Below are positions 16,070 to 44,895 of a stretch of DNA of 64,000 nucleotides, in pieces; position 1 is the first letter of the stretch, and each line of letters begins with the position of its first letter. Origin of the DNA: Raillietiella orientalis. Taxonomy: Eukaryota. The notes under the pieces were generated by a model that saw only the letters and a list, made by a program, of their open reading frames with translations, made no database searches and was not told where the DNA came from. Made by a program: the position numbers and the translations under genes. Location of the stretch: NCBI GenBank assembly GCA_036172245.1, contig JAYWIR010000018.1, positions 3,596,001 to 3,660,000 of the forward strand. Direction: 5' to 3'.

Positions 16070-19000
16070 ATGACTCCCAGGAGAATTTCGACTCGCTCCA
16101 TGAATGTTAGCAGCCACCACACGGTCAAGCTGAAAAAACTCTCGCGGAAGGCAACCACCTCCACTCCCGTGTCCAGCGGTTGCATGGAGGAATTCCCCGT
16201 CGGCAATGAAGTGTCCAACATCTGGAAGGAGCTGAGGGAGAAGAAACAGCTCTGCGACGGGGTTATTCGGACCACGGACGGCGTCGTCTTCCACATCCAC
16301 CGCGCTATTCTTTCCGTAGCCAGCCCTTACTTTAAAGCTCTATTTACCAACAGCCTAAAGCAGGGCAACCCGGAGACCACGGAGGTCCTGTTCGACATCA
16401 GCGGCGACATCATGAACCTGATCCTCGATTTTATCTACACCGGGAAGTGCAAGATCACCAGCCAGAACGTCGAGAAGCTCCTGCCCGTGGCGGACCACTT
16501 CCAAGTTCTTGGGGTGGTCAAGTTCTGCTGCGAGTTTCTAAGCCGCGAGCTTAGACCCGACAACTCCCTCGGCATCTACAAGTTCGCAAAACATTACTTC
16601 TGCAAGGAGCTGGAGGCGAAGGCGAGAAAGTACATACTGGTCAGGTTCTCGGACTTGGTCGCCCAGAGCAACGAGTTCGTCCTGCTCCCCGAGGAGGAGC
16701 TTGAGGACTTCCTCAAGGACGACGAGCTGAACGTCCGCAACGAGGAGCTCGTCTTCGAGGCTTTGCTCAAGTGGGTCGAGTACGACGCAGAGAGGCGCTC
16801 TGGCAAGCTGGCGAGCCTTTTCCACTGCGTGCGCTTCGGACTGATGAGCTACAAGTATTTCACGGATATCGTGTGGAAGAACTCGCTGATCTCCAGCAGC
16901 CAGGTATTCCGTCCGAAAGTCGAGGAGCACCTCTCCACGTGAGCGCAACCTGCCGGCCCTCACTTTCTCCACAGCCATGTTCAGTGGCTCTGCGCGCATG
17001 CGCACGAATCGGCTCGTTCGCGATTGCCGCGTGCCTAGCGAAAGATGCCATGTCAACAGTGATGGCAAGCAGCAATTAAAGAAGGCGGGGGAGGGAATAT
17101 GAAACGGAATGCTTTTCCCCATCATCTCTGTGATCTCCTTTCGCAAAATTTCTCGCCCTTTCCATCCCGAAGTGGTCAGAGTGCACGCTCGGCAGGTTCC
17201 GCTGTTGACCGCTCAAGCGGTCTCGCTCCGCGTTTCCAGTCGCTGCCTGAGGATGACGAAGAGAGAGGACAGCAGAGTCGGCAGCGGATGAGATGAATTT
17301 TCTATTGCTTCCAGGAGTGCCAAGCGTCCCTTTACCCATCCTCCGTGTTCCTGGCCCAGCTTGATTCTTCAGGAGGAGAGACGGACCTTAACGACCCCCT
17401 TGCGAGACCACGAATTCCTCATGAAATTCTCTTCGCTATCGGCGGGTGGAGTGCAGGAAGCCCTACGAGTTTCGTCGAGACCTACGATACTAGGTACCGT
17501 TGTCAACTGATCTTGGGAAGTGACCTTGGGACCAGGGAGGGGGAGAACAAAGTAGAAAAAAATGGCATGACTTTTTCCGAAAGAGCCGACCGCTGGTTCT
17601 TGTCGGTGAACACGGACACCACGCCTCGGGCCTACCACGGACTGGTGGAGCTCAACGGACTGATCTACATGATCGGCGGCTTTGATGGGAACGAGCACTT
17701 CAACACTGTCCGCTGCTTCAACCCAGTGACCAAAGTTTGGAAGGAGCGTGCCTGCATGTACACCCCCAGATGCTACGTCAGCGTGTGCACCTTAGGTACA
17801 GGAGACATAAGCGGAGCGCGTCTTACGCGTCTTACACCACGAGGCTTGGTGCCTCTTTCCTGCGGCTGCGCCTCGGCTTGTCTGTGTCCTTCTCTTCCTA
17901 AAAGTTGAGAAAACAATACCTACCCCGTCTTCCTTTAACGAAGCGGGCCATAGTACCCCAATCAGGGTGTCGCCAGCGTCGCATGCCGTGACCGCGGGCT
18001 GAGCGTTCCTACCCGGCTTAGGGGGCCGGAAAGGAACACCTCAGAAGGATGGGAACTCAATAAAGGCGTGGAAACCTTAACGCTGCGTAGCTCCCATCTC
18101 TTGCGAAGAGATTCGTCAGATCTCCCTGCAGACTCCGCTACCGAAGCTCAGAAGGAGAAAAAAAGAGAGAGCAGCCACCGAGTCTCGCCGGCTTAAGGAA
18201 ACTTCCGGAAAACGGCGTGATGTGCGATCCTGCGCGGTTCCCGCGAGTGCTCTGAAAGAGCGAGCACGAGCAACCGACCCACGCTTGAAGTCTCGAGGAC
18301 CAGAGGATGACCCAGATTAACCGCTGCTTCCAGACGGGCACATCTACGCGATCGGCGGATACGACGGGAGGTCCAGAATGAACAGCGCCGAAAAATACGA
18401 CCCCGGGATCAACCAATGGGAGCTGCTCCCGTCCATGCACAGGCAGAGGTCGGACGCCAGTTCCGCGTCGCTCGACGGGAAAGTTTACATCGCCGGGGGC
18501 TTCAACGGACAAGAAGTGCTGAATAGCGCCGAAGTATACGACTCTAGAACAAGACAGTGGTCTTTCATTAGTCCTATGCTGAACGCCAGAAGCGGGGTCA
18601 GCCTGATTGCGTACCACGGCTACCTGTACGCGCTTGGAGGATTCAATGGCTTTACGAGGCTGAACTCTGGTGAGTTGCGGGGCATCTCCCATTTTCCCTT
18701 TCTTTCCCGGTTTCGGCTCGTCCTGCTTTCTGCTCTCGTCAGGTCAATTTTTCGTTCCCACTGACTCTCGTGCATTTTCCCAAGTTCCAAAGGTCACTTC
18801 ACCCTTCTGCCTGCTCCCCGGTGAAGTCACCAGCGGATAAGAGCGCATGCTTATCGTGCGCAACGCGTCTAGAATCCAAGCAGTCCCTCCTCCCTGACAA
18901 TACTGCTGAATGAGGGTAAAACGCCCTTCCTCACTGCGTCCTGCTAGTCACTTCCAGCAGAGGAGCGGAAGAAGTAATAACAGAGCCATGGGGCTTTATA

Positions 19001-30367: not shown

Positions 30368-30759
30368 TCCTTGGAAAAGCAGAATGCAGAAGTAAAAGGA
30401 GAGAAGCTGGCCAATGGTCAGATGACGAGTGCAACAACGTCGACAGATCCGCGACGCTGCAAACAAGAGACGGACGTGTGCTAATCTCGCTTTGGTGGGT
30501 TTGGTGGTGAGAAGAACGGTAAAGCCTGATACTACCACCAATGAAGGCAAAGTGGCGACGTCCTCATCGGCCTTCGCCTAGAAAGCCTTGTGGAGCACGG
30601 TACGAGCCAGGATGGCGGGGCCGGGCCGGGACAGGCATACTCACCATCGAGAAGATCGGAATGCCGGTGCAGTTCAAACACAATTTGCCACAATTTGAAT
30701 TTCAATATAAAACAAGCAACTGAAATACAATACAAGAGAAGTTATTAGGGATTTGCAAC

Positions 30760-31445
30760 AGAGTGCCAGGACGTGGCCGGGAATTTGCAATCTAGTGCAA
30801 AGGTGAAACCGATGACTTCAAAGTGGGTAAATAGTAGAAAAGTAAGGAAATTCGGACGAATTCAACATTTTTTGCGGAATAAAACCTCTTTTTCTATATT
30901 GAAAATGTTGGTTGCCATAGCAACAAGACAAAACGCAGTCCACATCACACACCTTATAATTGGGAATCCCGAGAGATTTCAATATAAATACAGGAATGGG
31001 CATTCAGTGCAGGAGGACTTACTTGAGATTTCCAATTACGAGTCATTACGTCACCAGGGATTTCTAATTGAGTGCAAAAGTTGAACCGTTCACTTGCAAG
31101 TAGTGAAAGGAAGAAACTTCGGACCACTTCAAAAATCTTTCGGAAAACAATTTTATTTTTTGAATTTAAAACATTGGTTTCCACAGCAGTAAGACCGAAT
31201 ACAATCTGCTCCACCCTTCTGATGTTTGGGAAAACCACTGATTCCAATATAGGAAAAAAAATGGAGATTCATTGCAGCAGTCGCTATTTGGGATTTGGAT
31301 TCAAGTGCAAGAACGTCCATGGAGATGATTAATACAATGCAAAATTTGAACCGTCTACATTCAAATCAGGAAAGGGAAGAAAAGTGTAGAAATTAGGGCC
31401 ACTTCAAAAATCTTTGCGCAATGCAATTTATTTTTAAGGATGGAC
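30760..31445. repeat. Three diverged tandem units of about 270 bp
   Basis: A core resembling tgcaaaa-ttgaaccg...ggaccacttcaaaaatcttt...ttttatttt recurs at about 30796, 31073 and 31339 (spacing 277 and 266). Confidence 0.6.
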
Positions 31446-31449
31446 CGAG

Positions 31450-32100
31450 AGCCAAAAGGCTTAAGAAAAAGGTACGAGGCTTCGATTTCGATAAATGCAT
31501 AGAAGCAGCCACGTCCTCATGTTCAACGGGTAACGCAAACAAATTATTCTCAGTTTGAGGAGATGCCGCCCTATAATACAATTTTGATCCATATGATTCT
31601 CTTTCAAATCCAAAGATGCAGAGCTCGCTGCACCCGCCGTATAATCCATAAATCAGGTTCAACGTGACAACGAATACCAGCCATACGCACCTTCTGGAAC
31701 ACAGTATGCATTTTCTTCACACTCACAGCATCCAAGCAAGACAAACAATCCAAATCATCATCCAGATGCATATGCAAGTAACATGCTACAACAGCATCAC
31801 CGATCAGCAGGCACTGAATCCACCACCGTAAGCAAGGAATAAGCAGTTGGAAACGTCGAGACACAAAACGCAGCCTTATAATGGCTACGCACCCGAATAC
31901 GCGGCGGTATACGCCGCGCATATTTGATTCTGGGCCTAAGCTTATAACGTTTATGCAAGAAGCGCCGCTTTCCTAAAGCACGACGCTTCTTTGCTACAGG
32001 ACGAGATATAAATCTCTTCCTCTTCCGAGAGACAACCGGCACAGCCTCCACTCTTCGAGACGACTGAATCTCTTCTGACGAAAGCAACAATGCACACCAT
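31450..32100 (-). pseudogene. cap: CRESS virus capsid protein, N-terminal and central part (frameshifted)
   Basis: Arg/Lys-rich N-terminus RKRKRFISRPVAKKRRALGKRRFLHKRYKLRPRIKYARR. After a frameshift comes FQKVRMAGIRCHVEP, resembling the YxIxxVxVxFxP strand of circovirus-like capsids. Divergent from rep across the origin. Confidence 0.75.
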
Positions 32101-32254
32101 TTTTGAACCCCTCCCTTACATGACTCCTACGAACAAAACACCTAGCGACGAAAGTGCGAAGCTATTTCAAGGTCAATGAAAATTCCTCAAGGAGCAAGTT
32201 ACGACACGCACGAAAAACGAGTACGAACGAAGGTGGGCGGGGCAAGGGGAACGA

Positions 32255-32286
32255 AAGTGGGCGGGGTGACACTGACCCGCCCACTT
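32255..32286 (-). other. Rolling-circle replication origin stem-loop with nonanucleotide CAGTGTCAC
   Basis: Perfect 11-bp stem AAGTGGGCGGG / CCCGCCCACTT with a 10-nt loop reading TCAGTGTCAC on the minus strand. Iteron-like direct repeat GTGGGCGGGG at 32233 and 32257. TATATATA at 32286-32293 lies upstream of the rep ATG (32330). Confidence 0.88.
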
Positions 32287-32329
32287 ATATATACTCGCAC
32301 CAAAATACACATTCGAATCAGTGACGAAA

Positions 32330-33452
32330 ATGCCTTACAAATCGCGTTTTAACTGGTGTGCCTCTTTGAACAACTATTCGCAAGAAGAGTACAAAACCAT
32401 AAAACATTGGTGCGAAAATCATGCAAAATTCGCAATCATAGCAAAGGAAATCGGAACCGACCAAACGCCTCACCTACAAATTTATCTCCAATTGATAGAA
32501 ACGAAAACTATACTGCAACTGAAGGCATTTCCCTTCAAGAAAGCTCATCTCGAAGCCAGCAAAGGTTCAGCCCAATCCAACATAACATACTGTTCCAAAC
32601 AGGACCCTTCACCCTGGCAACACGGAACGCCCCTTACGCAAGAAGAAGATACTTACAAAGACGAAGTAAGCTATCCATAATTTTATAAAAACAAGTTTAA
32701 ACGGAAAAAAAATATTCTGACGGAACCGGCCGTGAAGTCGACTCGCTTGTGACAGAGAACCAACTATAAAATAGTTACCTAGTCTCTAACCAGTCTTCTA
32801 AGACTAAGCCATTGTGTACCTCTACTTCCAGATTCTACAATTAATAAGAGACGGCAAAACGGAAGCATGGATCCTAAACAATCACACAAAATTCTACGCA
32901 AAAAATATGAATTTCGTTAAAAAATGCTTCCGACAAGTACTAAATCCCCTAACCAAAGACCCATTATCAGGTCTGCAGCTGATGCACTGGCAACTAAACC
33001 TATTCTCAACACTTAAATCCGAACCTCACCCGAGAAACGTATACTGGTTCAGTGATCCTAAAGGAAATAGCGGCAAAACGACAACAGCAAAGCATCTATA
33101 CTTACGAGGTAATGCAATATACCTTACAAGCTGCAGAAGGTCAGATGCAGCCCGCTTATACCAAGGCCAAAAAATTGTTATACTGGACTTTTGTCAAGAT
33201 TACAAACATAGAGTGCAATAAGGCTTCATTGAAGCAATAAAAGATGGAATAATAATCGATCGAAAATATCAAGGAAAGATAAGGTTATTGAGCACTCCAC
33301 ATGTGGTTATCTTTGCCAACTGGGATCCCGATTACTCAAGATTAAGTGAAGACCGCTGGATCGTCAAAAGAATTGACGAACCACAACGACAGAAAACAAC
33401 CTTTACAGTAAACGAAGATGGACTTATACTTCAAAGAAATCACATTCAATAA
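32330..33452 (+). pseudogene. rep: CRESS virus replication initiator Rep (HUH endonuclease + SF3 helicase), spliced, one premature stop
   Basis: Exon 32330-32665: motif I CASLNN, II PHLQ, III YCSK. Phase-0 intron 32666-32831 (GTAAGC...CTAAC...TTCCAG). Exon 32832-33452: Walker A GNSGKT, Walker B VILD, motif C VIFAN, LSEDRW. In-frame TAA at 33219-33221 (VQ*GFIEAIKDG). The terminal TAA overlaps AATAAA. Confidence 0.95.
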
Positions 33453-33688
33453 ATAAGACTTCTTATTGACCAATTCATTTGTCTGGGATTTTTGAATTCC
33501 GAATACACACTTCGATGAACACGAACAACAGGCGCAAACTAAGTCGTACGATTTCCACTCAACCAAGTAGAGGGAACATTAAAACCAGATATATGACGAA
33601 CCAAATGGAAAGTGAAACCCTTAACATTCACCTTCATATCATCCGAAGAATAACAATCCAGCCAACGACACTTCTAGTGTAATCCCAC
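33446..33688 (-). pseudogene. cap: CRESS virus capsid protein, C-terminal part
   Basis: One minus-strand frame with two internal TAG: KCRWLDCYSSDDMKVNVKGFTFHLV...PVVRVHRSVYSEFKNPRQMNWSIRSLIY*. It has the W(L/I)D...G...VYxEFK pattern of circovirus-like capsid C-termini and ends convergently over the rep stop. Confidence 0.7.
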
Positions 33689-33689
33689 T

Positions 33690-33820
33690 GAAGACGAAGG
33701 CGACGTGCCCGCCTTGTATCGCTCAGCTAGAATGACGCTCCTACCTAAAAGTGAAGACCTCAGCAAACAAAACTGGCGTCCGATCACGATTGTGAACACA
33801 GACGCCAAGTTGGTGGTTGC
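33690..33820 (+). mobile_element. Reverse transcriptase fragment of non-LTR retrotransposon
   Basis: GDVPALYRSARMTLLPKSEDLSKQNWRPITIVNTDAKL matches GDVPASFRSAKVRLLPKGGDLRSMNNWRPITIVNADAKL in the 59869-60963 RT. Confidence 0.88.
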
Positions 33821-36640
33821 CACCCGGTCACGCCGGGGCGTTTATTATAAAGTCACTATAATTCGAGGTACTAGGCCCCACTACGGCCAACACAACAGGA
33901 CCTGCGGGGAGTTGTCTCCCCAAACTGTAAGCGGTGCGGGGAAGTGGAAACGCTCCCGCACCTGCTCCTGGACTGCGGTGCCCTCCTAGGACTGTGGCGG
34001 AGGCTGGCCTCAGCTCTCCTGCACCAGGGGACACCGCAACAGACTTGATGCGCCGCTTCTTCACGCCAGGCTGCCTGTCTTTGGGTGCTGTCGTTGCAAC
34101 CGTGTGTTGCACCCGCGCCATCGACAAGCCCCACCGAGAGTTGGAGAAGCTGGCCATCCTTCGTCAGCCCACCGGACTAGCCAGCGCAAGCATGTCGTCG
34201 GCTGCCGAGTGGGCCCACCTACCGGAGAGCGTGAGGAGAGAGATCGCCGGCATCCATCGCCGGTTCTGAAAGGAAGGAACGGCCGAACCAAAGACCCCTG
34301 TCCCCTGCCCTCCATATTTTTATTTTTATTCTTTTTTAGTAGTGTATCTGTGGTCCCCTCCCTCCCGTTCCGGACTTTCGGCATACCGACCTGCGTGTCA
34401 GGGATCCCACCCCCTTCGTCTCTTGTTTTCCCCTTTGTCCAGGAACTCTGTTCCCGGATAGTTTTTTAATAAACGCCCCGGCGCACCCGGGTGATAAACA
34501 ACAGGACCTGCCGGGTCGCCGGTGCGCAGACCGGCGCGACTCCCCTCGGCAGCGGAAGTTGATGGGGGAAAAAACAAAAAGAAAAATAAAAACAGAAAAA
34601 AAAAAAGAGATTTGGGAGGGAGGGGAAGGGATCACAGTCCATTGGGAGGAGAGTCCATCCTTTCCAGGATGCCCTCCAGGTCCATCCGTATAATTCCCAG
34701 GTGCAGCCATCTGATCGCAAGTCGCAGGTAGCGGACTGCAAGTTCGACAGCATCCCTCTCGTAGTTCGGTCTTTTCACGTCTCTCCAGCACGTCACAATC
34801 CCTCGGATGCAGCAGAGTGCCTCCAGGGCTGCGGCTGGTCGCAGGGCGTCCCGCACGAACAGAACCCGACAAACATCTCTGGGCTGGCTGCCCACCTGGA
34901 TCCGTAGGGAGGTACCAAGACGCTCCCACAGGGGTCAGAAGGCAGCACAATCAACAAGGAGGTGGAGGAGGGATTCCAGCTCCCCGCACCTGATGCAGGC
35001 CGGATTCACTCGACCCCGTGTCCAGTGGTGGCGGCGTGCGTTGCAGGGTAGGCCCCAATGCAACAACAGAAGCGCCGACTCCTGCCACTTCAGGGGGAGG
35101 ATCCTCGAACCAATTAAAACCGGGAGCCACTTCAGGTCATCCGTAGAGATGCCCAGCAGCTCGCCCCTTCTCATTAGTCCGCGCGGGAGGACACTTCGGG
35201 TCGTGGCATCGGCCAGCTGCCCCATGGTCCAACGGCTCATCAGTTTCTCTCTGCCTGCGATATGGCAGGAGAATTGCCACCTAGGCATGCGGCTGCTGGG
35301 GAGCGCCCTCCTTAGGAAGGGAATCTCCGTAGCTAGGGGGGTTGTCTCTGGCCACGTGCTCCTCGAGGGACACTCGAGTATCTTCCGCAGAGTGCAGCGG
35401 GCGCAGGCGCCGTGTCACAGGCAGTTCCACACCTCGTGGCTCCTCTCATTTATCTTCGCCCACGTGCCAGTTGTCTCCTCCAGCCATGAGGTGGAGTTGG
35501 CGAAGCTGCAGACCATCCAGCCGTTCTCCGTAGCCAGCGTGGCCATGCGTCCAGGGAGAAGGCCTCAACTTTTGATCTTCCGGCCACGGCACAGAAGATA
35601 CGACGCGAGACCTTGGGTCCCGGATACACGGCAGGCAAGGAGGTGGGCCAGAACGCAATGAGGGGTGCTCCATAACTTCGCTGCGATGGCTATGGTGCGC
35701 CATCACAGCTGGATCTCCATCCGCTCCAGCGTCAGGAGGCCGAGACTGCCATCCCGACGTGGAGCACAAAAGTCCTTCAACGGGCCTTCCTCTTCCCCAA
35801 AGGGCTATCCTCAGGAGATCCTTCGTCCGTTTCTTCAACTGGGGCGGGACGGGCAAACAAAAAGCAGGGGGAGGAGGATGGGAACCGCGAACGCGTTCCA
35901 CACCGCAGCCCGTTCCGGCAGGAGAAACTTGCCGTCCAAGAACGGGCCGATCGCCTACTCTACTTTTCGGAGACGACCTGACCAGGCTTCCGCAAGGCAG
36001 AAGTCCCCCAACGGGACACCCAGGTACCTGGCCGTGGGGATCCCCAAGCGGATCCTGTCAGGCCGTCCAACCCACGTCACACCAACCGCCACCACCGACG
36101 ACTTGTTCATCGCGTTCTCTTGTGTTTCGGACTCACCTGAGAGCAGGCGGAGATTGAAGTTTCCCGTTATCAGTGGGCCTTCCTCAAGTTCGTGTGCGCC
36201 AGCCAATCGTGCTTTAGCGTTTCCAGCAACACGGTGCGGTCGTGGTACCCCTGGGAGTGTATACGTTCGTGACGATCAGGTCGATCGAGTCAGACCACCT
36301 GAGGATCAGCTGACCGACCCGACCGTCGTCATCGAAACGCGCGCTCTTCACGGCAGCGTTGATGGCTGGCTTCATGAAAAACGTGACGCCACAGGTGTAG
36401 CGAGCGTCGCATTGCCTGTACAACAAACCCCCCGCGATCGTCTCGATCTCCTGGACGTCTGCCGCGGTGATCACGTGGATCTCCTGCAGCAGGGTCAGGA
36501 CGAACTCACGCAGGATGTCGGCTGTATCCCTTCTGTTGCCGTCGTCGCGCAGCCCGTTGACATTCCAACAAGCCTCGCGGATCCGACGGCGACAGGAGAG
36601 CCCGGGTGCTATTTCCGGGAAATCGGCGCTGCGGCGTCCG
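33821..36640 (-). mobile_element. L1/Tx1-type non-LTR retrotransposon with RT core deleted, interrupted at 33906-34497
   Basis: APE endonuclease (ACWNVNGL, LLQEIH, CGVTFF, DGR, TNVYTP, TGNFN) fused at about 36115 to post-RT sequence (NKSSVV...RYLGVPLG). C-terminal CIRCGELESLLHLLVDC. 3' terminal motif at 33821-33846. Confidence 0.88.
33906..34497 (+). mobile_element. 5'-truncated non-LTR retrotransposon with 14-bp target-site duplication
   Basis: TSD ACAACAGGACCTGC at 33892-33905 and 34498-34511. ORF2 end EWAHLPESVRREIAGIHRRF*. 3' motif at 34468-34493. Confidence 0.9.
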
Positions 36641-36644
36641 CCAC

Positions 36645-36935
36645 CTGTCGAGTGGGTCCATCTTCCAGAGAACGTTAGGAGCGAGATCGCCGTCATCCAT
36701 AGCCAGTTCTGAAGGAAAGGAACGGCCCAAACCAAAGACCCCTGTCCCCTACCCTCCCCATATCTTTATTTCTATTCTTTTATATGTGTATTTGTGGTCC
36801 CCTCCCTCCCATTCCGGACTTCCGGTTTACCGACCTGCGTCTTGAAGATCCCCCCCCTTCGTTTTCTCTGTGTCCTTTGTCCGGGAGCTCTGTTCCCGGA
36901 TAGTTTACTAATAAACGCCCCGGCGCACCCGGGTG
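36645..36935 (+). mobile_element. 3' end fragment of the same non-LTR subfamily as 33906-34497
   Basis: EWVHLPENVRSEIAVIHSQF*, a 3' UTR alignable to 34204-34493, and the terminal motif at 36910-36935. Confidence 0.88.
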
Positions 36936-36939
36936 AGAA

Positions 36940-38688
36940 ACAACCGACCGACCGTCATTGTTCGGACGTGCATTCTTGCGCTCAGGCTTTGGAGTTCCTT
37001 TTGCGGTTGTTGAATTTTTTGGGTGTGGTGTAATTTTCCGAGGAAAATGAAGCATACGCCTGAACCTATGGATGTGGAGGAACTCCTCTGCCCTGCAGGA
37101 CCCTCCTCGGAGGAGAATGGAGCCTCCGCTGCTCAAGGCAGAGACGGCTAACGAAGGCCCAACCGGACGAGGCAGAGCTCCGGGCTTATGTAGCCCAAGG
37201 CTTCTAGCCCACGCTCTCCTACAAGGTTAGTGCCTTGTATACGGATGGGACGGGAGACCAGCTCTGGAGCGAGCTGGAACGCGTCGGGGTCCGCGAGAAC
37301 GACCTCCTGGAGTTAATGCCTGTGAGCGCGGTGGGCCATTGGGAGGTGCACTGCAAAGATGCAGCCCTCGTCCAGCGCCTGCTCCGAACGCCCCTGAAAA
37401 TCAGGGGTAAGGAGGTCGTCCCCTCGGCCCTGGACCGTTCGTTCGTGATCCAACTCTCGACCATTCGGCCGGGAATCGCCGACCACGACCTGATCGTTGC
37501 ATTGGAGGCGTTCGCCACCGTGCACGCATTGTGGAGGCGCGTGAACCCCGTCAAGAAGGTTCCGCGCCTCTCTCGCGGACTCGACACGGCGCGCGTCACC
37601 ATGGACGACCGGAGGCTGCTGCCTTCGCAGATCCTCCTCGGTGACGACGTCGTGTTTCTTCGGTTTGCCGGACAAACCCTGGCTTGCGGCAACTGCGGCA
37701 AAGAAGGCCACCGTCCGCGGAAGTGCTCCACACGCAGTTGCAGCTACTGCAAGATGCTAGGCCACTCCATCAATGAGTGCGCCGAGCTCAAACGCAAAAG
37801 GCGGTCGAGAACGTCCCCGCAACATCGCCGTCCGCGCCGATTCCATCTGCCCCATCGTCGGGCAAGAAATCTGGCGCAAACGAGGCTTCGCAGCGGAGTA
37901 GCCCAAAGTCCGATTGCGCGGGCGTGTCTGGGAGCAAAGCTCCCCAAAAGTCCTCGCAAAAGAACAAAAAGCTGCCCAAAGCAAGCCCCGAGAGACCCAG
38001 CCTGCCGAAAACATCCGACAAAAGGCTAAACTGCCGCCTCCGTCCGTTCCCGCCCCGGAAAGAAATGGCGGTGACACACTCAGGACGTCCACCGTAGCAC
38101 CAAAAAAGGGGTCGCGCTCCCCTCCGGCCGCGAAAGGCAAGCCGGTCACGGCGAGCCGATCCTCAGAAAAGGCTGCAAAGCTTTGCGCGATTCCGAAAAA
38201 TCCTACCACTCTGCCCGCAGCTTCCGGTGAGGATATGCAACAGGCAGATATGGCGAGGGAAAAACTGGCCGCCATTGCCCAACGGAAGGCCTTGGAAAGG
38301 ATTCACAGGACCCTGCAGGCCCTTGCGCCCAGCCGAGGCAAACTGGAGAACGGCGAGGCTGGCTGGACTTTCGTTGGGGGAAAGAAGAAGGAGAAGAAAC
38401 CACGCTATCCTTCCCACTTCCCCATCATTAAGGTAGGCGGGGTGAAGAGGCAGCCCCGCGCGCCAAGGAAAGTGCACGAAAAAGTCTCAGCTGCCGTTGC
38501 ACCGTTGCTGCCGTCTCTGTCACCCGCGACAAAAGCGCAGCTGCCGACGCCGAAATCCCGAGAGGGGGATCGGCTAAGAAGGCACCCTTCACCAGTGCTG
38601 GACCAGCTCCGAGCTGCAGCCAAAGAGACGGCAGGCAAAATGCCCGCCACGCGCGCGAAATTCGGACTCCGAGGTAGAATCCGATTTT
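36940..38688 (+). mobile_element. 5' part (UTR + ORF1) of L1/Tx1-type non-LTR retrotransposon, frameshifted and 3'-truncated
   Basis: ORF 37235-38029 has an RRM-like region and two CCHC knuckles (CGNCGKEGHRPRKC, CSYCKMLGHSINEC). A Lys/Pro-rich tail with GWTFVGGKKK follows in another frame. Confidence 0.85.
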
Positions 38689-39447: not shown

Positions 39448-42400
39448 CCCGCCATTGTGAACAGTTGCGCTGACTTGGCGCATCGGGGAGGATGCGCCGC
39501 CACTGGCGACGTCCTCGTACGATTTCGCTTCTCCGCGAAGGCCGTGAACAACGGCGCGCCACCGCCTGTGCTCCGCTTGAGGCGCACGTGTTTCGCGCGT
39601 TTCTGGCGTGTGCGGTACGTTTGCTGGGGCGCTCTTCGAGGCGCTCCCGTCGACGCTGGCCTTTCGCCTTCCAGGTCACCATTGTCCAGGAGCCGTCCTT
39701 TTCACCGATGACGTCCCCCCAGGAGAGTCGCTCTCCTGCGAAGCAACGTCTTGTTTCGCGAAGGTCGCGTCGTGACTGGCGGGTGCTTTCCGAAGTCCGC
39801 CTCGTTGCGCCGGCGCGTTCGTCCAGCCAAAGGCGAACGAACGATCCAGGAAGAGGAGTAGCCAGACTAAGAAATGAAAAGTTCAAAGAAAGGGCTGCCC
39901 GACCCACCATGCCAGTCTGGGACGGGGAAAAGCACCCTCAAACAAAGAAAGATACAAGATACGAACGAGTGAAAGGCCAAACGAGCCGACAAGCGTCTTT
40001 CGCTTCGGCCGTTTCATCGTTTCGCAAAGGCCGCTGATTGCTTGCCTGCTTCTTCGTTTACACGAGGCCACTTATCTGCCGTCTTCATGCTGGCGGCTTC
40101 GATGTTCCCGGTCGCCTCCTTGGGTATCAGTCGCCACTGGAATACGCGGTGGTCCATGACGATGGTCCGCATACAACTGATGGCCGCGATGAGCACGCCG
40201 CTGCGCGTGAAGCCATGGATGACGTACGTGTGAGTCTTCCAGGCGTGGAGGCGCAGGAGCGCCTCCAGGCACCCTGGCCGTGGCCTGCACGGCACCGCAC
40301 TCGAAGAGCATGTGCACAACCGATTCCACTGCTCCACACTCTTCAACGCTGGGGCATCGTCAACTCCCCCGGAATCGAAGAGGGCGTGTTGCTCCGCAAA
40401 AGAAACCTCAAAGCAACGCAAATAGCAGCTCATCCACGCATGCATTCACGAGAGTCTGCCAAATCGCATTTCGATCCGTGCAAAATGTGGCTTTCCATCC
40501 TCGGCCCATTGCTTTCCGAATGGCATGCGTTCTCGCGAAGGAGCAAATCCATTGCAAGGCTGCGCTGCATCCACACACGTGTTGCTCGTAGACATTCGAA
40601 GCTGCGGGACGCACACTATGGCAGGCAATGCACTCCTTCCAAAGCGCACATCGATAGGCATGGAAAATTGCACTCCAAGACACGATTCCCATGTTCCCAC
40701 GTATGCGTTCACCGTGCTCCTCGAAAACACTACTTGAGCCTCTGAATTCGTGTCAGCAGGGACGATTGCCCATTCCTTTTCTTTTCCGCTTGCGGAAATG
40801 AATGTCGTCAATGGAGCTGAGAAGAGGAAGGAATGGGTGCATGCAGCGTACGTTCCGTCTTCTCGATGGAGCCTTTCACTGCAACAACCGGACGTGCGAT
40901 GGATACGCGTCAGCGGAACGAACGTGTACAAACCGAATCCCGCAATTCATCTGCAGCTCGTGCTCACCGCGGAAAGGGGTCGAGCAGCAGCATTTGCGTT
41001 CCTTCGTCTTCCAACTGTTCCGACTTTGCAGCATTGGCTCGCGTGCCTGAGATTCTTGTGAACGGATGCTCCGCGCTGGCGTGCATGAGTTTCGCAATCC
41101 ATCCCGAAAGGACTCCTCCATTCCATACGTGTGATGGTGAGTCGCTGTGTTTCAGCGTGCACGCGTGGCTTTCTGCTGCCCCACACGGTGGCTCCAGTTT
41201 TCGCGTGTCTCCTTCACGACGCGTCACATTGGCACATTGGACAGGAACGTACCTTGGACACAAGTGTTCATGTAGGGAGGTTGCTTGCATATGGCTGCGG
41301 CAGTGTCAACATCATTCTTGCCAGAAAAAGGAATGTGTTGATGCGGGACTGGAGAAATTTTGTCATTCGCAAAGGGAGCTCGCTGGAGGAAGGGTTGCGA
41401 ACTGGAGATGGCCATTCGGTTGCATGGAACGAACAACGGATCAATTTCGCTTACGAATTTCACCGGGAAACTGAGGCAGACTCGTGTTCAAGGCAACTCT
41501 GAATGAATGGATCGTGAAAGACTGCGTTGTGGCAGCTGGTCAACGTACTCATGCATCATCTTTGCAAACCCCTCTCGTCCTTCCTGCTTACCATTTCCGA
41601 GATCCGCTTGTTCGTGATGGACGCGGTCCGCACGGGCAACACTGAAAAAAAATGATCCCGGAAACAGAAGAAAAGACCCGGTCGTTCTTGCAAAGACATC
41701 TTGAAGGATTCCCATTCCGGATGAAAAGAACACCTAGTCCGAAGCAACCACTTTGGCGAGATGTCAATGCTAGTTCTTATCAGCTTCACAAGGGTCGACG
41801 GTAATTTTCGAGAAATTGCCTACCACGCACTTCGGGAGTGCATTGAACTGCTGCCGTCCACCTCACACAGAAGCGTTTCCTCCACGTTCACTCGAAGAAC
41901 GAATACCTTTCGTCAGGGAATACGCATTCGGTGCCGAGTGGCTTTCAGGACAGTACAACTCGGAAGAAGACGCGACTTTCCATTGCGAGTGCAAGTGCTC
42001 TAAGCAATTGCTCACATCCTCCGAAACGCGTTTTGCGTTTGCACGCGCACGCTGCGTGCACATCCGTCCCATCGAATGCGGAGTTCGTGTGGTCGCCAAG
42101 CGGAAAATGTACACACGTGGCCGCAAACCTTTTCCTAGCCAAACATGGCGCGATCCATGCAAAGTGGGTTCGTTCCCAGTTTGGAAAATCCGCACCGTGT
42201 ACGACTGCCGAAAAGTGGGGTGTGAGCACGAATGCTGATTTGGTTGTGGTACGCCTGCGCACTCGAAACCTGGCTTCTATGTCATCCATGGACCACGCAC
42301 ACTCGAAGCAACGCAACCGTGGCATCTGCTTCTCCCAGCCCAACCATTCAGGGATACACAAACACTTTCATTCAATTTTCAGATTCCGGCGCTCATCGAG

Positions 42401-44895
42401 CGGCAGCCGGGTAGACGCAGCAAAGCAGCAGGCGGAAAAAGCGGAGCACGCTGGCCCGCGTGCCGGATTGGCGAGCTGGCGACCTGTCTGCCAGCCGGTC
42501 CATGCGTGCGCCAGCAGCCGAACTGCAGCGCTTTCGTTCGCTGCCAGCGACTGCGAGTCCGCTGGAGGAGCTGCTGCTCGTGCCGCCCGCGGCAACCAGG
42601 CGCCAAGCGGAGCTTTCTGCAGCAGGACAGCCTCCGCCCAGGCTGCCGCTGCCACCGTCCGTGGCGACACTGTCGCCTGCCGCCGCCGCGCAGCTGCTGC
42701 CTTCGATGGAAACACTGCGCTCGCATCCTTCTCCAGGTCCACGATCGGAAGCAGGCGCCTCCTGGACCGGTGTGCACACCGCCGCTGCTGTGTGTCGCGC
42801 GGGACCGTCGTCCTGAAGGCCGCACGCCAGGTCGCAGGTCGCTTCTGCCATGCCGGACGTGAAATACGTCCAGTCGGCGATGAAGTCGTCTGCCGGTGCG
42901 TCGCCTTCATCACGGTAAGAATCCGGGAACGGGACGTCGCTCACGTTTCGCTGCTCCAGGCTGGTCCACGGATCCCATGCGCCGACGCTGCCTCCGTTCG
43001 GCTCCGAGGATACCGAGCTACCGCTGCCACCGTCCGTTTCGCTCGATAGAAACGTCCATTCGGTGCAGCAGGACGACGCCGTTCCGCATCTTGGGTCGGC
43101 TGCGCTGGCGCTGCTGCCGTCCTCCGTCGCCCAGCTCCTGTCCCCGATGACGGCCCGCTCCTCCAGGCTGTTGCTCTCATCCTGGCTTGGAGCGGGCTCC
43201 CGTGCGCACATGGCGCTGGTGGTCCGGCCGTGGCCGTCCCGCCGTGGTCTACCAACCGTTGCTGCGTGTTGGCCGTCGCTACCTCCCGACCACGACGAGG
43301 AAGACGCCGAAGAGAACGTTTCCGACGCTCCCTGCTGCCGCGCCTCAACGTCTACTTTGTCCAGGGCACGCAGCAACTCCTCCCCTACTGGGGTCCTCTC
43401 CTCCACCTCGGCAGTGCCAAAGGGTGCATCCGAGCAATCGCTCTCGCCTTCCACAATCAAAGCATCCTGAGAACCGCTCATCTTGGCACGAAGCAGAATT
43501 TCCTGCTGGCACTCGATGCACGGACACGTTTGCTAAACAAAGAAAGAAATCCATGGAGACGACAACGCATCTTCCGTAAAAGAAATAGCCGGGCAACGGT
43601 TTGTAAACCCGCTTCTCTGTAGCTCGGCCACGTAAGGGATGTGTTTCTTGATTTCATTTTTTCTCATCGAAAAGTTTCAGTCGATGAGGATTATCCTCGG
43701 TGATAAAATTGGGAATTTGTTCGAGGAAGCGGATGAAAGAAATTTCCGTTTTCAGCAGACACCGCTGCACGGATACAGGAACGTTTCTCCCGCTGACGTT
43801 CGGTCAAGAACAAGACTTCCAAACCAGCTGTCAGCAACCTGACAAGGTTGCGTCTTGCGTCTCTCACTTCGGAGAGACAACGTTTATGGCTTCGTTTTGG
43901 CGTGGAGTAGCAGGTTCCAGGGGGTGTGGGGGAGGGGGGACTCCACACATTCCGCCGTGGATCCGCCTCTGCGTACGTGGGACGGTCGTCGCTCCTCCCA
44001 TTGTAGAATCTTCCGTTTCCTGGCCTCCGCATACAAAGAGCAGACTGTTCGGGGGCTTCTCCGGCTGGTAATCGCTTTTCCGTGAGCATTCCTGAAGTAG
44101 CGGATGCCACCATCGCCACCGAATTCTTCTTGTGAATTCCAACTTGTGGCAGAATTTCCGAGATCCTAGGTTTTCGGAGAGCCAGCAAGCAATCTGTGAA
44201 CCCTACACCGCTTGCCCTCTCTGCCTAGCAGCAGGGCTTGCACCATGCCGAAGCGACTGCTCCGCACACCACGAAGCATGCGCAGCTCTTCCCGAAAGTC
44301 TTCCCAACGGCGCCATGCATGAATCGCTCGTGGTGGACGTTTCGCGCCGGAAATCTCCGAAAAGGATGGCGAAATTCGAAACCAGTTCGTGACCCGCTGT
44401 GCGGAACATCTCAATCCGCGGGCTGTCCGTCCATCCATGCACAGCGGTTCGACTGCCCGTGCTCCCACTGCCCACAACTGTCTGCGAAGCTACGCGTGCA
44501 AGACGCGTACGTCCACCTTTGGGACGCAGGCAAGCGTCCAGGGCTTAAGGAATCTTGCCAAGAGAGTTATCTTCGATAAGAATGCCCTTCCGGTATACAA
44601 GGAAACCACAAGGAGAGGAAGGGCCACACGATTTGCCGAAGCGGCCGGCACTTGCACGGAAAAACGCAGCCCCAAAAGTCGCACGCGGGGAAGACGAAGC
44701 GAACCGATTGGAAGACGCGCAATGGCAAAGCGCCGTCGCCATGGAGCGCAGCTGGAAGGCGTTTTCGCCCTCCACCGATCGCGCGGCAGGTAGGCCGCTT
44801 GCAGAGGCGCTCATGGTCCAGCAAAGGGACGCAGCTGTCTGTCGCTTTCGTGAATAGCGGAACCGCTGTCGCGCTCTGCAAACCCCTAACCGACC
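39448..44895. repeat. Copy 1 of a 5.4-kb near-identical direct duplication of highly decayed LINE-like sequence (minus strand)
   Basis: Matches 52728-58283 at offset 13280-13288, with identical ORF translations. ESVVHMLFEC (about 40300-40329) resembles the ORF2 C-terminal zinc finger; the rest is too decayed to classify. Confidence 0.92.

What the first reader, a model, noticed from the sequence alone, without database searches (positions are those of the whole stretch)
31450..33690. Near-complete endogenised CRESS-DNA virus genome, circularly permuted inside cap
Seen: a spliced rep on +, an origin stem-loop, an Arg-rich cap 5' part running leftwards, and a minus-strand frame (33688-33446) downstream of rep with capsid C-terminal character that ends over the rep stop/AATAAA. 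Inference: joining the two ends restores an ambisense circle of about 2.2-2.3 kb opened within cap, so a whole viral genome integrated. Most described CRESS EVEs are rep-only fragments. The Rep pairs a circovirus-like HUH domain with a nanovirus/alphasatellite-like helicase signature (GNSGKT, GFIEAIKDG, VIFAN, LSEDRW), which suggests an unclassified lineage that this insert would link to an arthropod host.
Basis: partly seen in the sequence, partly recalled or inferred. Interest (0 to 1): 0.88.

Follow-up and report, generated by a model that had tools for sequence, protein, structure and literature searches.

The report
Integrated CRESS-DNA virus copy in arthropod
A decayed, roughly genome-length copy of a small circular DNA virus (replication gene with an intron, replication origin, remnant of a coat gene) sits in an arthropod chromosome, which ties an unclassified virus lineage to an animal host, but the claimed coat-gene tail at its right end is not supported.

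Summary
The core observation holds. Window 31436-33692 (2257 nt) is a compositionally distinct insert. A host 277-nt repeat lies on its left and a 5'-truncated LINE fragment on its right.

The insert contains:
- a spliced rep gene (exon 1 32330-32665, GT..AG intron, exon 2 32832-33452);
- two iterons and an 11-bp stem-loop;
- a TATA box;
- a leftward Arg/Lys-rich frame, as in CRESS capsid N-termini.

Rep has no frameshift. It has one in-frame TAA, between Walker B and motif C.

Rep relatives number in the thousands, but none listed exceeds 46% identity. The nearest named one is a shrimp-associated anicrevirus (36%).

Not supported:
- The minus frame 33446-33688 has two internal stops. Its open runs are no longer than in shuffled sequence.
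- It matches no capsid by Pfam, tblastn or profile comparison, and the fold was uninformative.
- In 16 of 41 ambisense relatives, the 240 nt after the rep stop lie outside the largest opposite-strand ORF.

So the circle may have opened in cap, in the 3' intergenic region, or been trimmed later. This is a near-unit-length CRESS endogenous viral element in an arthropod. Such elements are known from fish and protists, while the invertebrate surveys read here report rep-derived elements. It is a new member of a known kind, of moderate interest.

The parts
31436..33692 (.). Whole virus-derived insert (2257 nt)
   Evidence: Left edge: the host 277-nt repeat homology ends at 31435. Right edge: LINE RT homology begins at about 33693. 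All parts of the insert have GC 0.38-0.49 and AT skew +0.15 to +0.42. All but the 203-nt origin region (GC skew +0.05) have GC skew -0.10 to -0.24. The flanks differ: the left repeat has GC skew +0.08, and the LINE has GC 0.59.
31436..32126 (-). Cap side: decayed putative capsid gene, running leftwards
   Evidence: Stop-free runs of 122, 109 and 93 codons tile the minus strand in three frames. In 2000 shuffles, 35 reach the longest run and 0 reach the third-longest. No capsid similarity was found. The reading path is unresolved: either two frame changes, or one frame with five TGA.
31797..32126 (-). Arg/Lys-rich N-terminal frame (109 codons, no ATG in frame)
   Evidence: 24 R/K in the richest 50 residues. 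Only one other place in the window reaches 22 or more. The largest opposite-strand ORFs of relatives have a median of 14 R/K in their first 50 residues. The nearest ATG, at 32100-32098, is in another frame.
32225..32266 (+). Two iteron-like direct repeats (18 nt, 17 of 18 identical, 24 nt apart)
   Evidence: family D2.
32255..32286 (.). Origin-type stem-loop: 11-bp perfect stem, 10-nt loop (32266-32275)
   Evidence: I3; z -3.35; 1 of 200 shuffles folds as well. The loop 9-mer matches NANTATTAC at 5 of 7 specified positions on the minus strand and 4 of 7 on the plus strand.
32286..32293 (+). TATATATA, ending 36 nt before the rep ATG and starting at the last base of the 3' stem arm
   Evidence: Read from the sequence. 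Its role as the rep promoter is inferred.
32330..32665 (+). rep exon 1: HUH endonuclease domain (motif I CASLNN, motif II HLQ at 32471-32479, motif III YCSK at 32588-32599)
   Evidence: Pfam PF02407 E 6e-10. PCV2 Rep 2hw0 E 2.6e-10. 36-39% identity to P0009 and P0164. Motif names are recalled.
32666..32831 (+). Intron (166 nt, GTAAGC...CAG, phase 0)
   Evidence: The exons abut within one residue on unspliced P0009. The intron is present in genomic DNA of run X1 (record 32622-32772, 0 differences). Five related viral contigs have a GT..AG intervening sequence in the same linker, about 6 codons away. Splicing itself is not shown.
32832..33452 (+). rep exon 2: linker and SF3 helicase (Walker A 33063-33080, Walker B 33180-33191, motif C 33312-33320), stop TAA 33450-33452
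   Evidence: HMMER: 6482 relatives at E<=1e-3, best 150 at 29-46% identity. Invariant G78, G81, K82, N163 and others across 28 aligned sequences.
33219..33221 (+). The only break in rep: an in-frame TAA between Walker B and motif C
   Evidence: It falls on a column that is nearly invariant in the 27 aligned relatives.
33448..33453 (+). AATAAA overlapping the rep stop
   Evidence: There is no AATAAA on the minus strand anywhere inside the insert.
33453..33692 (.). Right-hand 240 nt of the insert: virus-derived by composition, coding status unknown
   Evidence: Same skews as the rest of the insert. The minus frame has two TAG stops. A 70-codon open run lies on the plus strand. Open runs on the minus strand are no better than shuffles. 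No capsid similarity. AF2 pLDDT 36.6.
30699..31435 (.). Left flank: two diverged copies of a host repeat of about 277 nt
   Evidence: 30699-31160 against 30976-31435, 66% identity.
33693..33812 (+). Right flank: 5'-truncated LINE reverse-transcriptase fragment
   Evidence: 59% protein identity to residues 71-119 of the RT ORF at 59869-61035(-). That ORF matches RVT_1 at E 7e-26. DNA match. More LINE pieces follow, including zf-RVT at 33875-34048.

Best explanation
This is a dead, germline-type integrated copy of about one genome length (2257 nt) of an unclassified CRESS-DNA virus (Cressdnaviricota). It lies in TE-rich nuclear DNA of an arthropod.

The source virus was ambisense. Rep and a capsid gene diverged from a short origin region that holds two iterons, a stem-loop and the rep TATA box. 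Rep was expressed by splicing out a 166-nt intron between its nuclease and helicase halves, which implies replication in a eukaryotic nucleus.

The copy entered as DNA, most likely the double-stranded replicative form joined by illegitimate recombination. This is inferred because the intron, the origin and both divergent genes are all retained.

The copy is no longer functional:
- rep is cut by one stop codon before helicase motif C;
- the loop 9-mer departs from the canonical nick site;
- the capsid side has lost a continuous reading frame and an in-frame ATG.

The circle was opened somewhere in the 3' part, downstream of the rep stop. Whether that point lay inside cap, in the 3' intergenic region, or was set later by TE insertion or deletion cannot be told from this copy.
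For: - Rep identity.
- Origin.
- Cap side: the Arg/Lys-rich frame is rare in the window, and three long open runs on the minus strand are reached by 0 of 2000 shuffles.
- One compositional unit, 31436-33692, with sharp edges at a host repeat and a LINE fragment.
- The unit length of 2257 nt lies within the relatives' contig lengths (median 2338.5).
- Host: a KLHL10-like exon at 16040-16942. 57 of 67 hits are arthropods and the best identities are 50-58%. A LINE RT is present.
- A 151-nt record of DNA run X1 spans the left junction with 67 nt on the host side and 84 nt on the insert side, and 1 difference. Another spans the exon 1/intron border with 0 differences.
- There is no other Rep-like piece in the window: 16 of 16 tblastn hits fall in 32300-33460.
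Against: - No capsid similarity of any kind was found for the cap side beyond its basic N-terminus.
- The frames left of about 31800 are 5-7% Cys, against a median of 1.0% in the non-Rep ORFs of relatives. That stretch may be badly decayed or may not be cap.
- The loop lacks a canonical nonanucleotide.
- The right junction is not bridged by any listed record.
- Run X1 may be the sample the assembly was made from, so it is not independent.
- The right edge abuts TE debris, so sequence may have been lost. 'About one genome length' rests on size and composition only.
- Splicing and expression were not observed.
Confidence: 0.8

Rival explanations
1. One genome was linearised inside cap, so the cap 5' two-thirds lie at the left end and its C-terminal 80 or so codons lie at 33688-33446(-), ending at the rep stop.
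For: - The topology is possible for an ambisense circle.
- One cap-side frame (31716-31393) is still open at the left edge.
- The right piece is compositionally viral.
- In 6 of 41 ambisense relatives the two stops lie within 21 nt of each other or overlap.
Against: - The frame has two internal TAG stops.
- Open runs are no longer than in shuffles: 1130 of 2000 reach the observed longest.
- A longer open run (70 codons) lies on the opposite strand.
- There is no Pfam, tblastn or profile match.
- There is no minus-strand AATAAA in the insert.
- 16 of 41 ambisense relatives have 240 nt or more between the stops.
Confidence: 0.25
2. Cap is complete on the left in a single frame (32126 to TAA at 31461-31463, 221 codons) interrupted only by five TGA codons. 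The circle opened in the 3' intergenic region, and 33453-33692 is non-coding viral DNA. The insert would then be a whole genome with point changes only and no indels.
For: - This frame has the fewest stops of the three (5, against 8 and 10), and all five are TGA.
- It ends 25 nt from the left junction.
- Rep also carries only a point change.
- 3' gaps of 240 nt or more occur in 16 of 41 ambisense relatives.
Against: - There is no ATG in this frame.
- Cys is 5.9%.
- There is no capsid similarity, and AF2 of the X-read frame gave pLDDT 35.8.
- CpG observed/expected is about 1 in the insert and the host, so CpG decay does not explain an all-TGA pattern.
- Rep uses no in-frame TGA, so altered decoding is unlikely.
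Confidence: 0.2
3. The insert is a fragment. The LINE and other TE insertions or deletions at the right edge, or the integration itself, removed part of the genome, so neither end marks the original opening of the circle.
For: - The right flank is a mosaic of non-collinear LINE pieces starting exactly at the edge.
- No target-site duplication was seen.
- Relatives' contigs reach 3-5 kb.
Against: - 2257 nt is close to the median of relatives (2338.5).
- The insert already holds rep, the origin and 690 nt of cap side.
Confidence: 0.3
4. It is not endogenous: an exogenous or episomal virus was joined to host DNA by misassembly.
For: No listed record bridges the right junction, and only three 151-nt records of one low-depth run lie on the insert.
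Against: - A record spans the left junction.
- Rep carries a premature stop, the cap side is broken and the loop 9-mer is off consensus.
- The flanks are host repeats at sharp compositional edges.
Confidence: 0.03
5. It is a LINE-mediated retrocopy. Reverse transcriptase switched from LINE RNA to a read-through, unspliced viral transcript longer than one genome, giving [viral]-[5'-truncated LINE].
For: - The insert's right end abuts the 5'-truncated end of a same-strand LINE RT fragment.
- LINE-mediated copying of circoviral elements is reported for carnivores (PMC6372831, passage read).
Against: - The intron is retained.
- The origin and the region upstream of the rep TATA box are included.
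- The cap side is antisense to such a transcript.
- The LINE pieces are non-collinear.
Confidence: 0.03
6. Rep, or its nuclease half, has been co-opted by the host and is still expressed.
For: - Rep has no frameshift over 318 codons, while the cap side is broken.
- Its tree branch is not longer than those of exogenous relatives (0.61 against a median of 0.67).
- The TATA box, splice sites and AATAAA are intact.
Against: - The stop lies before helicase motif C.
- It is a single copy in TE-rich DNA.
- There are no expression data.
Confidence: 0.05

Closest known systems
Anicreviridae (Mulpavirales), e.g. Otevirus soksuewis, the grass-shrimp associated circular virus (P0164)
   Same: - It is the nearest relative that carries a name. 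Both Rep halves are 36% identical.
- Locus L003 shares P0164's recorded contig length (2257 nt) and may be this genome; that identity was not tested. It is ambisense, with a 321-aa Rep and a 297-aa opposite-strand ORF.
- It has a crustacean association.
- Its order also contains Nanoviridae.
   Different: - 36% identity is no closer than hundreds of unnamed metagenomic Reps, which reach up to 46%.
- The tree gives no supported clade.
- Its Rep is not interrupted at this position (L003, in-frame gap).
- No cap similarity was found.
Circoviridae (PCV2 Rep, PDB 2hw0 / 7lar)
   Same: - The endonuclease domain matches at E 2.6e-10, with an HLQ-type motif II.
- The layout is ambisense, with the origin between the 5' ends.
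- The capsid N-terminus is Arg-rich (recalled for circoviruses).
   Different: - The helicase exon gives no match to the full-length PCV2 chain.
- The profile of 28 relatives matches PCV2 only over positions 6-155.
- Rep is spliced here.
- The loop 9-mer is non-canonical.
Whole-genome CRESS endogenous elements: tandem full-length circovirus genomes in cyprinid fish (PMC6372831, passages read); whole genomes in Entamoeba and Giardia (PMC7493932, passages read)
   Same: A DNA-level integration that keeps rep, cap side and non-coding region together.
   Different: - Those have close exogenous relatives (about 70-84% nucleotide identity). This one has none in the collections searched.
- The host here is an arthropod.
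- This is a single unit, not a tandem array.
Rep-only CRESS/circovirus-like EVEs of invertebrates (PMC6069186, PMC4573495, PMC3198968; passages read)
   Same: The same kind of event and the same broad host group. Crustacean and mite genomes hold many such elements.
   Different: - Those reports describe rep-derived pieces: all new elements in PMC6069186, an average of 128 aa in PMC4573495, and 302 Rep-like against 3 capsid-like sequences in PMC3198968.
- Here the origin, the intron and a cap-like part are kept.
- The supplements of these papers were not read and could list longer elements.

Membership tests
Cressdnaviricota Rep | N-terminal HUH endonuclease with motifs I, II, III | tested here: met
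   PF02407 E 6e-10, above the curated cutoff. The alignment to PCV2 Rep covers CASLNN, HLQ and YCSK.
Cressdnaviricota Rep | C-terminal SF3 helicase (Walker A, Walker B, motif C) | tested here: met
   3063 relatives at E<=1e-10. Invariant G78, G81, K82 and N163. PF00910 is only sub-threshold (E 0.022). The domain is cut by a TAA before motif C.
CRESS-DNA virus genome | Stem-loop origin with nonanucleotide NANTATTAC at its apex | tested here: not met
   The stem-loop and iterons are present. The best 9-mer matches 5 of 7 specified positions. 67 of 80 relatives have a nonamer within one mismatch, 37 on the Rep strand and 30 on the opposite strand. The departure may be decay after integration.
CRESS-DNA virus genome | Capsid gene (jelly-roll fold; often a basic, disordered N-terminus) | tested here: inconclusive
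   The basic N-terminus is met. No sequence or profile match was found: 54 hhalign comparisons, all with probability 0.8% or lower. AF2 pLDDT was 35.8 and 36.6, unusable.
Endogenous viral element | Host sequence on both sides in one molecule | tested here: inconclusive
   In the assembly both flanks are host repeats. A 151-nt record of run X1 spans the left junction. None is listed across the right junction. The run may be the assembly's own sample.
Endogenous viral element | Loss of coding capacity | tested here: met
   There is an in-frame TAA in rep. The cap side has no continuous frame and no in-frame ATG.
Endogenous viral element | Orthologous locus in related hosts, or fixation | not testable with these tools
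   No genome is held for the window.
Circoviridae | Rep clusters with circovirus or cyclovirus Reps over its full length | tested here: not met
   The helicase half gives no match to PCV2 Rep.
Nanoviridae / Alphasatellitidae | About 1-kb components with one main ORF each; nanovirus-type Rep | tested here: not met
   Rep and the cap-like side share one 2.26-kb unit. The endonuclease matches the nanovirus-type entry 6h8o only at E 0.18. Similarity of the helicase to a named nanovirus could not be tested, because no such sequence was at hand.
Anicreviridae | Rep groups with the family in a supported clade (the family's demarcation rule is not known to me) | tested here: inconclusive
   36% identity to P0164. 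The tree of 58 rows has 4 of 55 inner branches supported, and none holds the window's row. Only one named member was included.

The most novel reading that the evidence does not exclude
The insert is a recent, essentially whole-genome endogenisation, with point changes only and no indels, of a still-circulating, undescribed arthropod-infecting CRESS lineage with a spliced rep. It would give the first firm animal host for part of the very large cloud of unnamed 'environmental' Reps at 30-46% identity. It would also give a capsid gene of a type with no detectable relatives.
Probability: 0.15. Interest if true: 0.6.

Novelty: new member of a known kind. Interest (0 to 1): 0.45.

Why it matters
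Most CRESS-DNA viruses are known only from metagenomes, without a host. An integrated copy that keeps the origin, a nucleus-type intron in rep and the cap side on one host contig is direct evidence that this lineage replicated in arthropod germline nuclei.

Three of the invertebrate surveys I read in passages describe rep-derived pieces only, or almost only (PMC6069186, PMC4573495, PMC3198968). Whole-genome integrations are reported for cyprinid fish and gut protists (PMC6372831, PMC7493932). A near-unit-length arthropod example therefore extends a known phenomenon and does not open a new one.

It also gives probe sequence for finding the exogenous virus in that host.

Tried and rejected
- **Own genome.** None is held, so copy number and orthology could not be checked.
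- **Earlier findings of this scan.** Nothing on this window or sequence. The items concern other genomes and do not bear on this.
- **IMG/VR scan with exon 2 alone.** It found no relative. The profile scan found 233 of 240 candidate stretches, and the best 80 were kept.
- **Word-index protein search with exon 2.** Only 2 hits.
- **Cap search by similarity.**
  - tblastn of 347 ORFs from the 80 relatives gave nothing outside rep better than E 0.03. The minus-strand hits at 32978-33373 are ORFs antisense to rep in the relatives.
  - hhalign of 6 frames against 9 clusters of non-Rep ORFs gave probabilities of 0.8% or lower in all 54 comparisons.
  - Pfam gave no family, apart from one sub-threshold chance hit (Neil1-DNA_bind, E 0.036) on the 44-aa piece 33539-33673(-).
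  - ESM Atlas on frame 31604-31972(-) gave a best score of 0.79 and recognition 1080, which is no lead.
- **Folds.** AF2 without an alignment gave pLDDT 35.8 for the cap-side frame read with X and 36.6 for the right piece. These give no verdict, and no fold search was run on them.
- **RNA evidence.** No RNA holder is listed, so splicing and expression stay untested.
- **Reads.** Run X1 has no listed record across the right junction and leaves most of the insert uncovered. This gives no verdict.
- **Stem-loop pattern in IMG/VR.** 11 matches, all on contigs of 5.9-125 kb with no Rep nearby. These are chance hairpins.
- **Target-site duplication** around the LINE or the insert: none seen.
- **CpG decay** as the cause of the five TGA: CpG observed/expected is about 1 everywhere. 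Rejected.
- **L001 'intron'.** It was an artefact of the contig's terminal overlap.
- **Rep tree.** Star-like, with no supported placement. The window's row was spread over the alignment by MAFFT, so the tree is weak.
- **Rfam.** No match in the window.
- **Atlas query under another code.** Not accepted, and I dropped it.
Full report
**What is there**

Reading 31000-34200 and listing the frames shows a rep gene on the + strand.
- The ATG is at 32330. Exon 1 runs to 32665 (112 codons).
- A 166-nt stretch follows that begins GTAAGC and ends with a pyrimidine-rich tract and CAG (32666-32831).
- Exon 2 (32832-33452) is in phase with exon 1.
- Exon 1 matches Pfam Viral_Rep (E 6e-10, above the curated cutoff). 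It also matches the solved endonuclease domain of porcine circovirus 2 Rep (2hw0, E 2.6e-10), with CASLNN, HLQ and YCSK in register.
- Exon 2 carries GNSGKT, VILDF, VIFAN and SEDRW. A search of 1.84 billion representative proteins gives 6482 relatives at E<=1e-3 and 3063 at E<=1e-10. The best 150 are 29-46% identical.
- Against the unspliced relative P0009, exon 1 aligns up to its residue 97. The 22 further exon-1 residues fill the distance to residue 121, where exon 2 begins to align. So the 166 nt are an intervening sequence, not a deletion or a join of unrelated pieces.
- Rep has no frameshift. Its only defect is an in-frame TAA at 33219-33221, between Walker B and motif C, on a column that is nearly invariant in 27 aligned relatives.
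- AATAAA (33448-33453) overlaps the terminal TAA.

**Origin region**

Upstream of rep lie two 18-nt direct repeats (32225-32242 and 32249-32266, 17 of 18 identical). The second forms the 5' arm of a perfect 11-bp stem (32255-32265/32276-32286) with a 10-nt loop.
- As single-stranded DNA the region folds better than 199 of 200 shuffles (z -3.35).
- TATATATA (32286-32293) starts at the last base of the stem's 3' arm and ends 36 nt before the ATG.
- The loop does not hold the canonical NANTATTAC. The best 9-mer matches 5 of 7 specified positions on the minus strand and 4 of 7 on the plus strand.
- Among 80 related viral contigs, 67 have a stem-loop nonamer within one mismatch of the consensus: 37 on the Rep strand, 30 on the other, and 13 have none.
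- A nick site on the strand opposite to rep would therefore be ordinary for this group. I read the departure from consensus here as decay, which is an inference.

**Cap side**

Leftwards from about 32126 the minus strand has a 109-codon open frame (31797-32126). Its richest 50 residues hold 24 Arg or Lys.
- Among 33,179 stop-free 50-residue windows in all six frames of the 64-kb window, only this place and one other (58100-58200, +) reach 22.
- In the ambisense relatives, the largest opposite-strand ORF has a median of 14 R/K in its first 50 residues. PMC6186406 (passages read) uses a disordered N-terminus as a criterion for putative capsids.
- The frame has no ATG. The nearest ATG (32100) is in another frame.
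- Further left the strand is covered by open runs of 122 and 93 codons in the other two frames. In 2000 dinucleotide shuffles, 35 reach the longest run and none reaches the third-longest. So coding on this strand is more than chance.
- Two paths fit: two frame changes with no stop, or a single frame to a TAA at 31461-31463 with five stops, all TGA. I could not decide between them.
- Every frame left of about 31800 is 5-7% Cys, against a median of 1.0% in the relatives' non-Rep ORFs.
- Nothing matched: not Pfam, not tblastn with 347 ORFs of the relatives, and not 54 profile comparisons. The single-sequence fold was unusable (pLDDT 35.8).

**Right-hand piece**

The frame 33688-33446(-) exists and ends 2 nt before the rep stop. 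The evidence does not support it as a cap C-terminus:
- It holds two internal TAG stops.
- Its longest open run (44 codons) is reached by 1130 of 2000 shuffles. The longest open run of the piece (70 codons) is on the + strand.
- No family, ORF of a relative, or profile matches it. The fold has pLDDT 36.6.
- No AATAAA lies on the minus strand anywhere inside the insert.

What can be said is that these 240 nt belong to the insert. They share its GC (0.39), GC skew (-0.23) and AT skew (+0.21), while the LINE next to them has GC 0.59 and no AT skew.

Topology does not force the piece to be cap. Of 80 relatives, 41 are ambisense, 22 unidirectional and 17 unresolved. In 16 of the 41, the distance from the rep stop to the stop of the largest opposite-strand ORF is 240 nt or more (range -4 to 570).

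**Edges and host**

- On the left, a diverged host repeat of about 277 nt (30699-31160 against 30976-31435) ends at 31435.
- On the right, protein-level homology to the reverse transcriptase of a LINE elsewhere in the window (59869-61035, RVT_1 E 7e-26) starts at about 33693. That point lies in the middle of the RT domain, so this LINE copy is 5'-truncated.
- More, non-collinear LINE pieces follow. No target-site duplication was seen.
- The insert is thus at most 31436-33692, or 2257 nt. The relatives' contigs have a median of 2338.5 nt.
- The contig is animal nuclear DNA. A KLHL10-like BTB-BACK exon (16040-16942) has 67 relatives: 57 named arthropods, 5 other animals and 5 unnamed. The best identities, 50-58%, are to insects. 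I take the host to be an arthropod and no finer than that.
- One DNA run (X1, kept as contigs, low depth) holds three 151-nt records on the insert. One spans the left junction (31369-31519, 1 difference). One spans the exon 1/intron border (32622-32772, 0 differences). One lies in exon 2 (33057-33207, 0 differences). No listed record crosses the right junction. The run may be the assembly's own sample.
- No other Rep-like piece is in the window (16 of 16 tblastn hits fall inside 32300-33460). The insert has no second copy there.

**How it most likely came about**

The intron, the origin and both divergent gene sides are kept in their viral order. The copy therefore entered as DNA, most simply the double-stranded replicative form opened at one point and joined to the chromosome (inferred). 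A LINE-mediated retrocopy of a read-through, unspliced transcript is conceivable because of the abutting truncated LINE, but it needs several unlikely steps.

The intron implies a virus expressed in a eukaryotic nucleus. At least five related viral contigs (L023, L033, L044, L045, L060) have a GT..AG intervening sequence with stops in all frames in the same linker. By my reading of the alignment it lies about six codons from the window's position. Most relatives are unspliced. An apparent intron in L001 was an artefact of contig overlap.

Today the copy looks dead. Rep is cut before motif C, the loop is off consensus and the cap side is broken. Rep's lack of indels, and a tree branch (0.61) no longer than those of exogenous relatives (median 0.67), suggest a fairly young insert or past constraint. 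Neither is shown.

**Classification**

- The nearest relative with a name is the Rep of Otevirus soksuewis, a grass-shrimp associated circular virus (Anicreviridae, Mulpavirales, the order that also holds Nanoviridae). Both halves are 36% identical to it.
- Unnamed Reps are as close or closer, at up to 46%.
- A quick ML tree of 58 rows is star-like, with 4 of 55 inner branches supported. It places the insert in no supported clade.
- The helicase half does not match the full-length PCV2 Rep chain. This holds for the sequence alone and for a 28-sequence profile, which matches PCV2 only over positions 6-155.
It is a property of the whole group, not of this insert.
- The 'nanovirus/alphasatellite' label could not be tested, because no named reference was available.

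**Novelty**

- Whole or tandem circovirus genomes are reported in cyprinid fish, and four vertebrate cases have both rep and cap (PMC6372831, passages read).
- Whole CRESS genomes are reported in Entamoeba and Giardia (PMC7493932, passages read).
- For invertebrates, the surveys I read in passages report rep-derived elements:
  - PMC6069186: all new elements derived from rep;
  - PMC4573495: 46 circo-like crustacean elements, average 128 aa;
  - PMC3198968: 302 Rep-like against 3 capsid-like sequences.
- I did not read their supplements, which could list longer elements. My literature searches do not prove absence.

I rate this a new member of a known kind: a well-preserved, near-unit-length arthropod CRESS element. 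It is useful as a host link and as a probe for the living virus, but it is not surprising to a specialist.

Noticed in passing
window 31464-32126 (-): All five in-frame stops of the single-frame reading of the cap side are TGA. The other two frames mix TAA, TAG and TGA. CpG observed/expected is about 1, so CpG decay does not explain it. Rep has no in-frame TGA.
   Followed up: partly
window 41847-43532 and 55135-56820: The ORF list shows the same set of ORF lengths (400, 207, 190, 175, 379, 183, 190 aa) repeated at an offset of 13288 nt. This points to a large direct duplication. Two of these ORFs had no Pfam family.
   Followed up: no
window 16040-16942 (+): A KLHL10-like BTB-BACK exon of the host, 50-58% identical to insect proteins.
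   Followed up: partly
window 58100-58200 (+): The only other place in the window with 22 or more Arg/Lys in a stop-free 50-residue window (up to 35). It lies next to the LINE copy.
   Followed up: no
window 34202-34502 and 36645-36944: A 300-nt direct repeat, 85% identical, right of the insert. Together with several LINE fragments, it shows the insert lies in TE-rich, rearranged DNA.
   Followed up: no
P0003 (354 aa): The best-scoring HMMER hit is a protein with the helicase half twice in tandem and no nuclease half. Its source labels it as from a Methylococcales MAG on a 3.9-kb contig. It is probably a concatemeric or misassembled CRESS contig.
   Followed up: no
window, whole: The window holds 98 N. 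AATAAA occurs 86 times, against 46.7 expected from shuffles.
   Followed up: no
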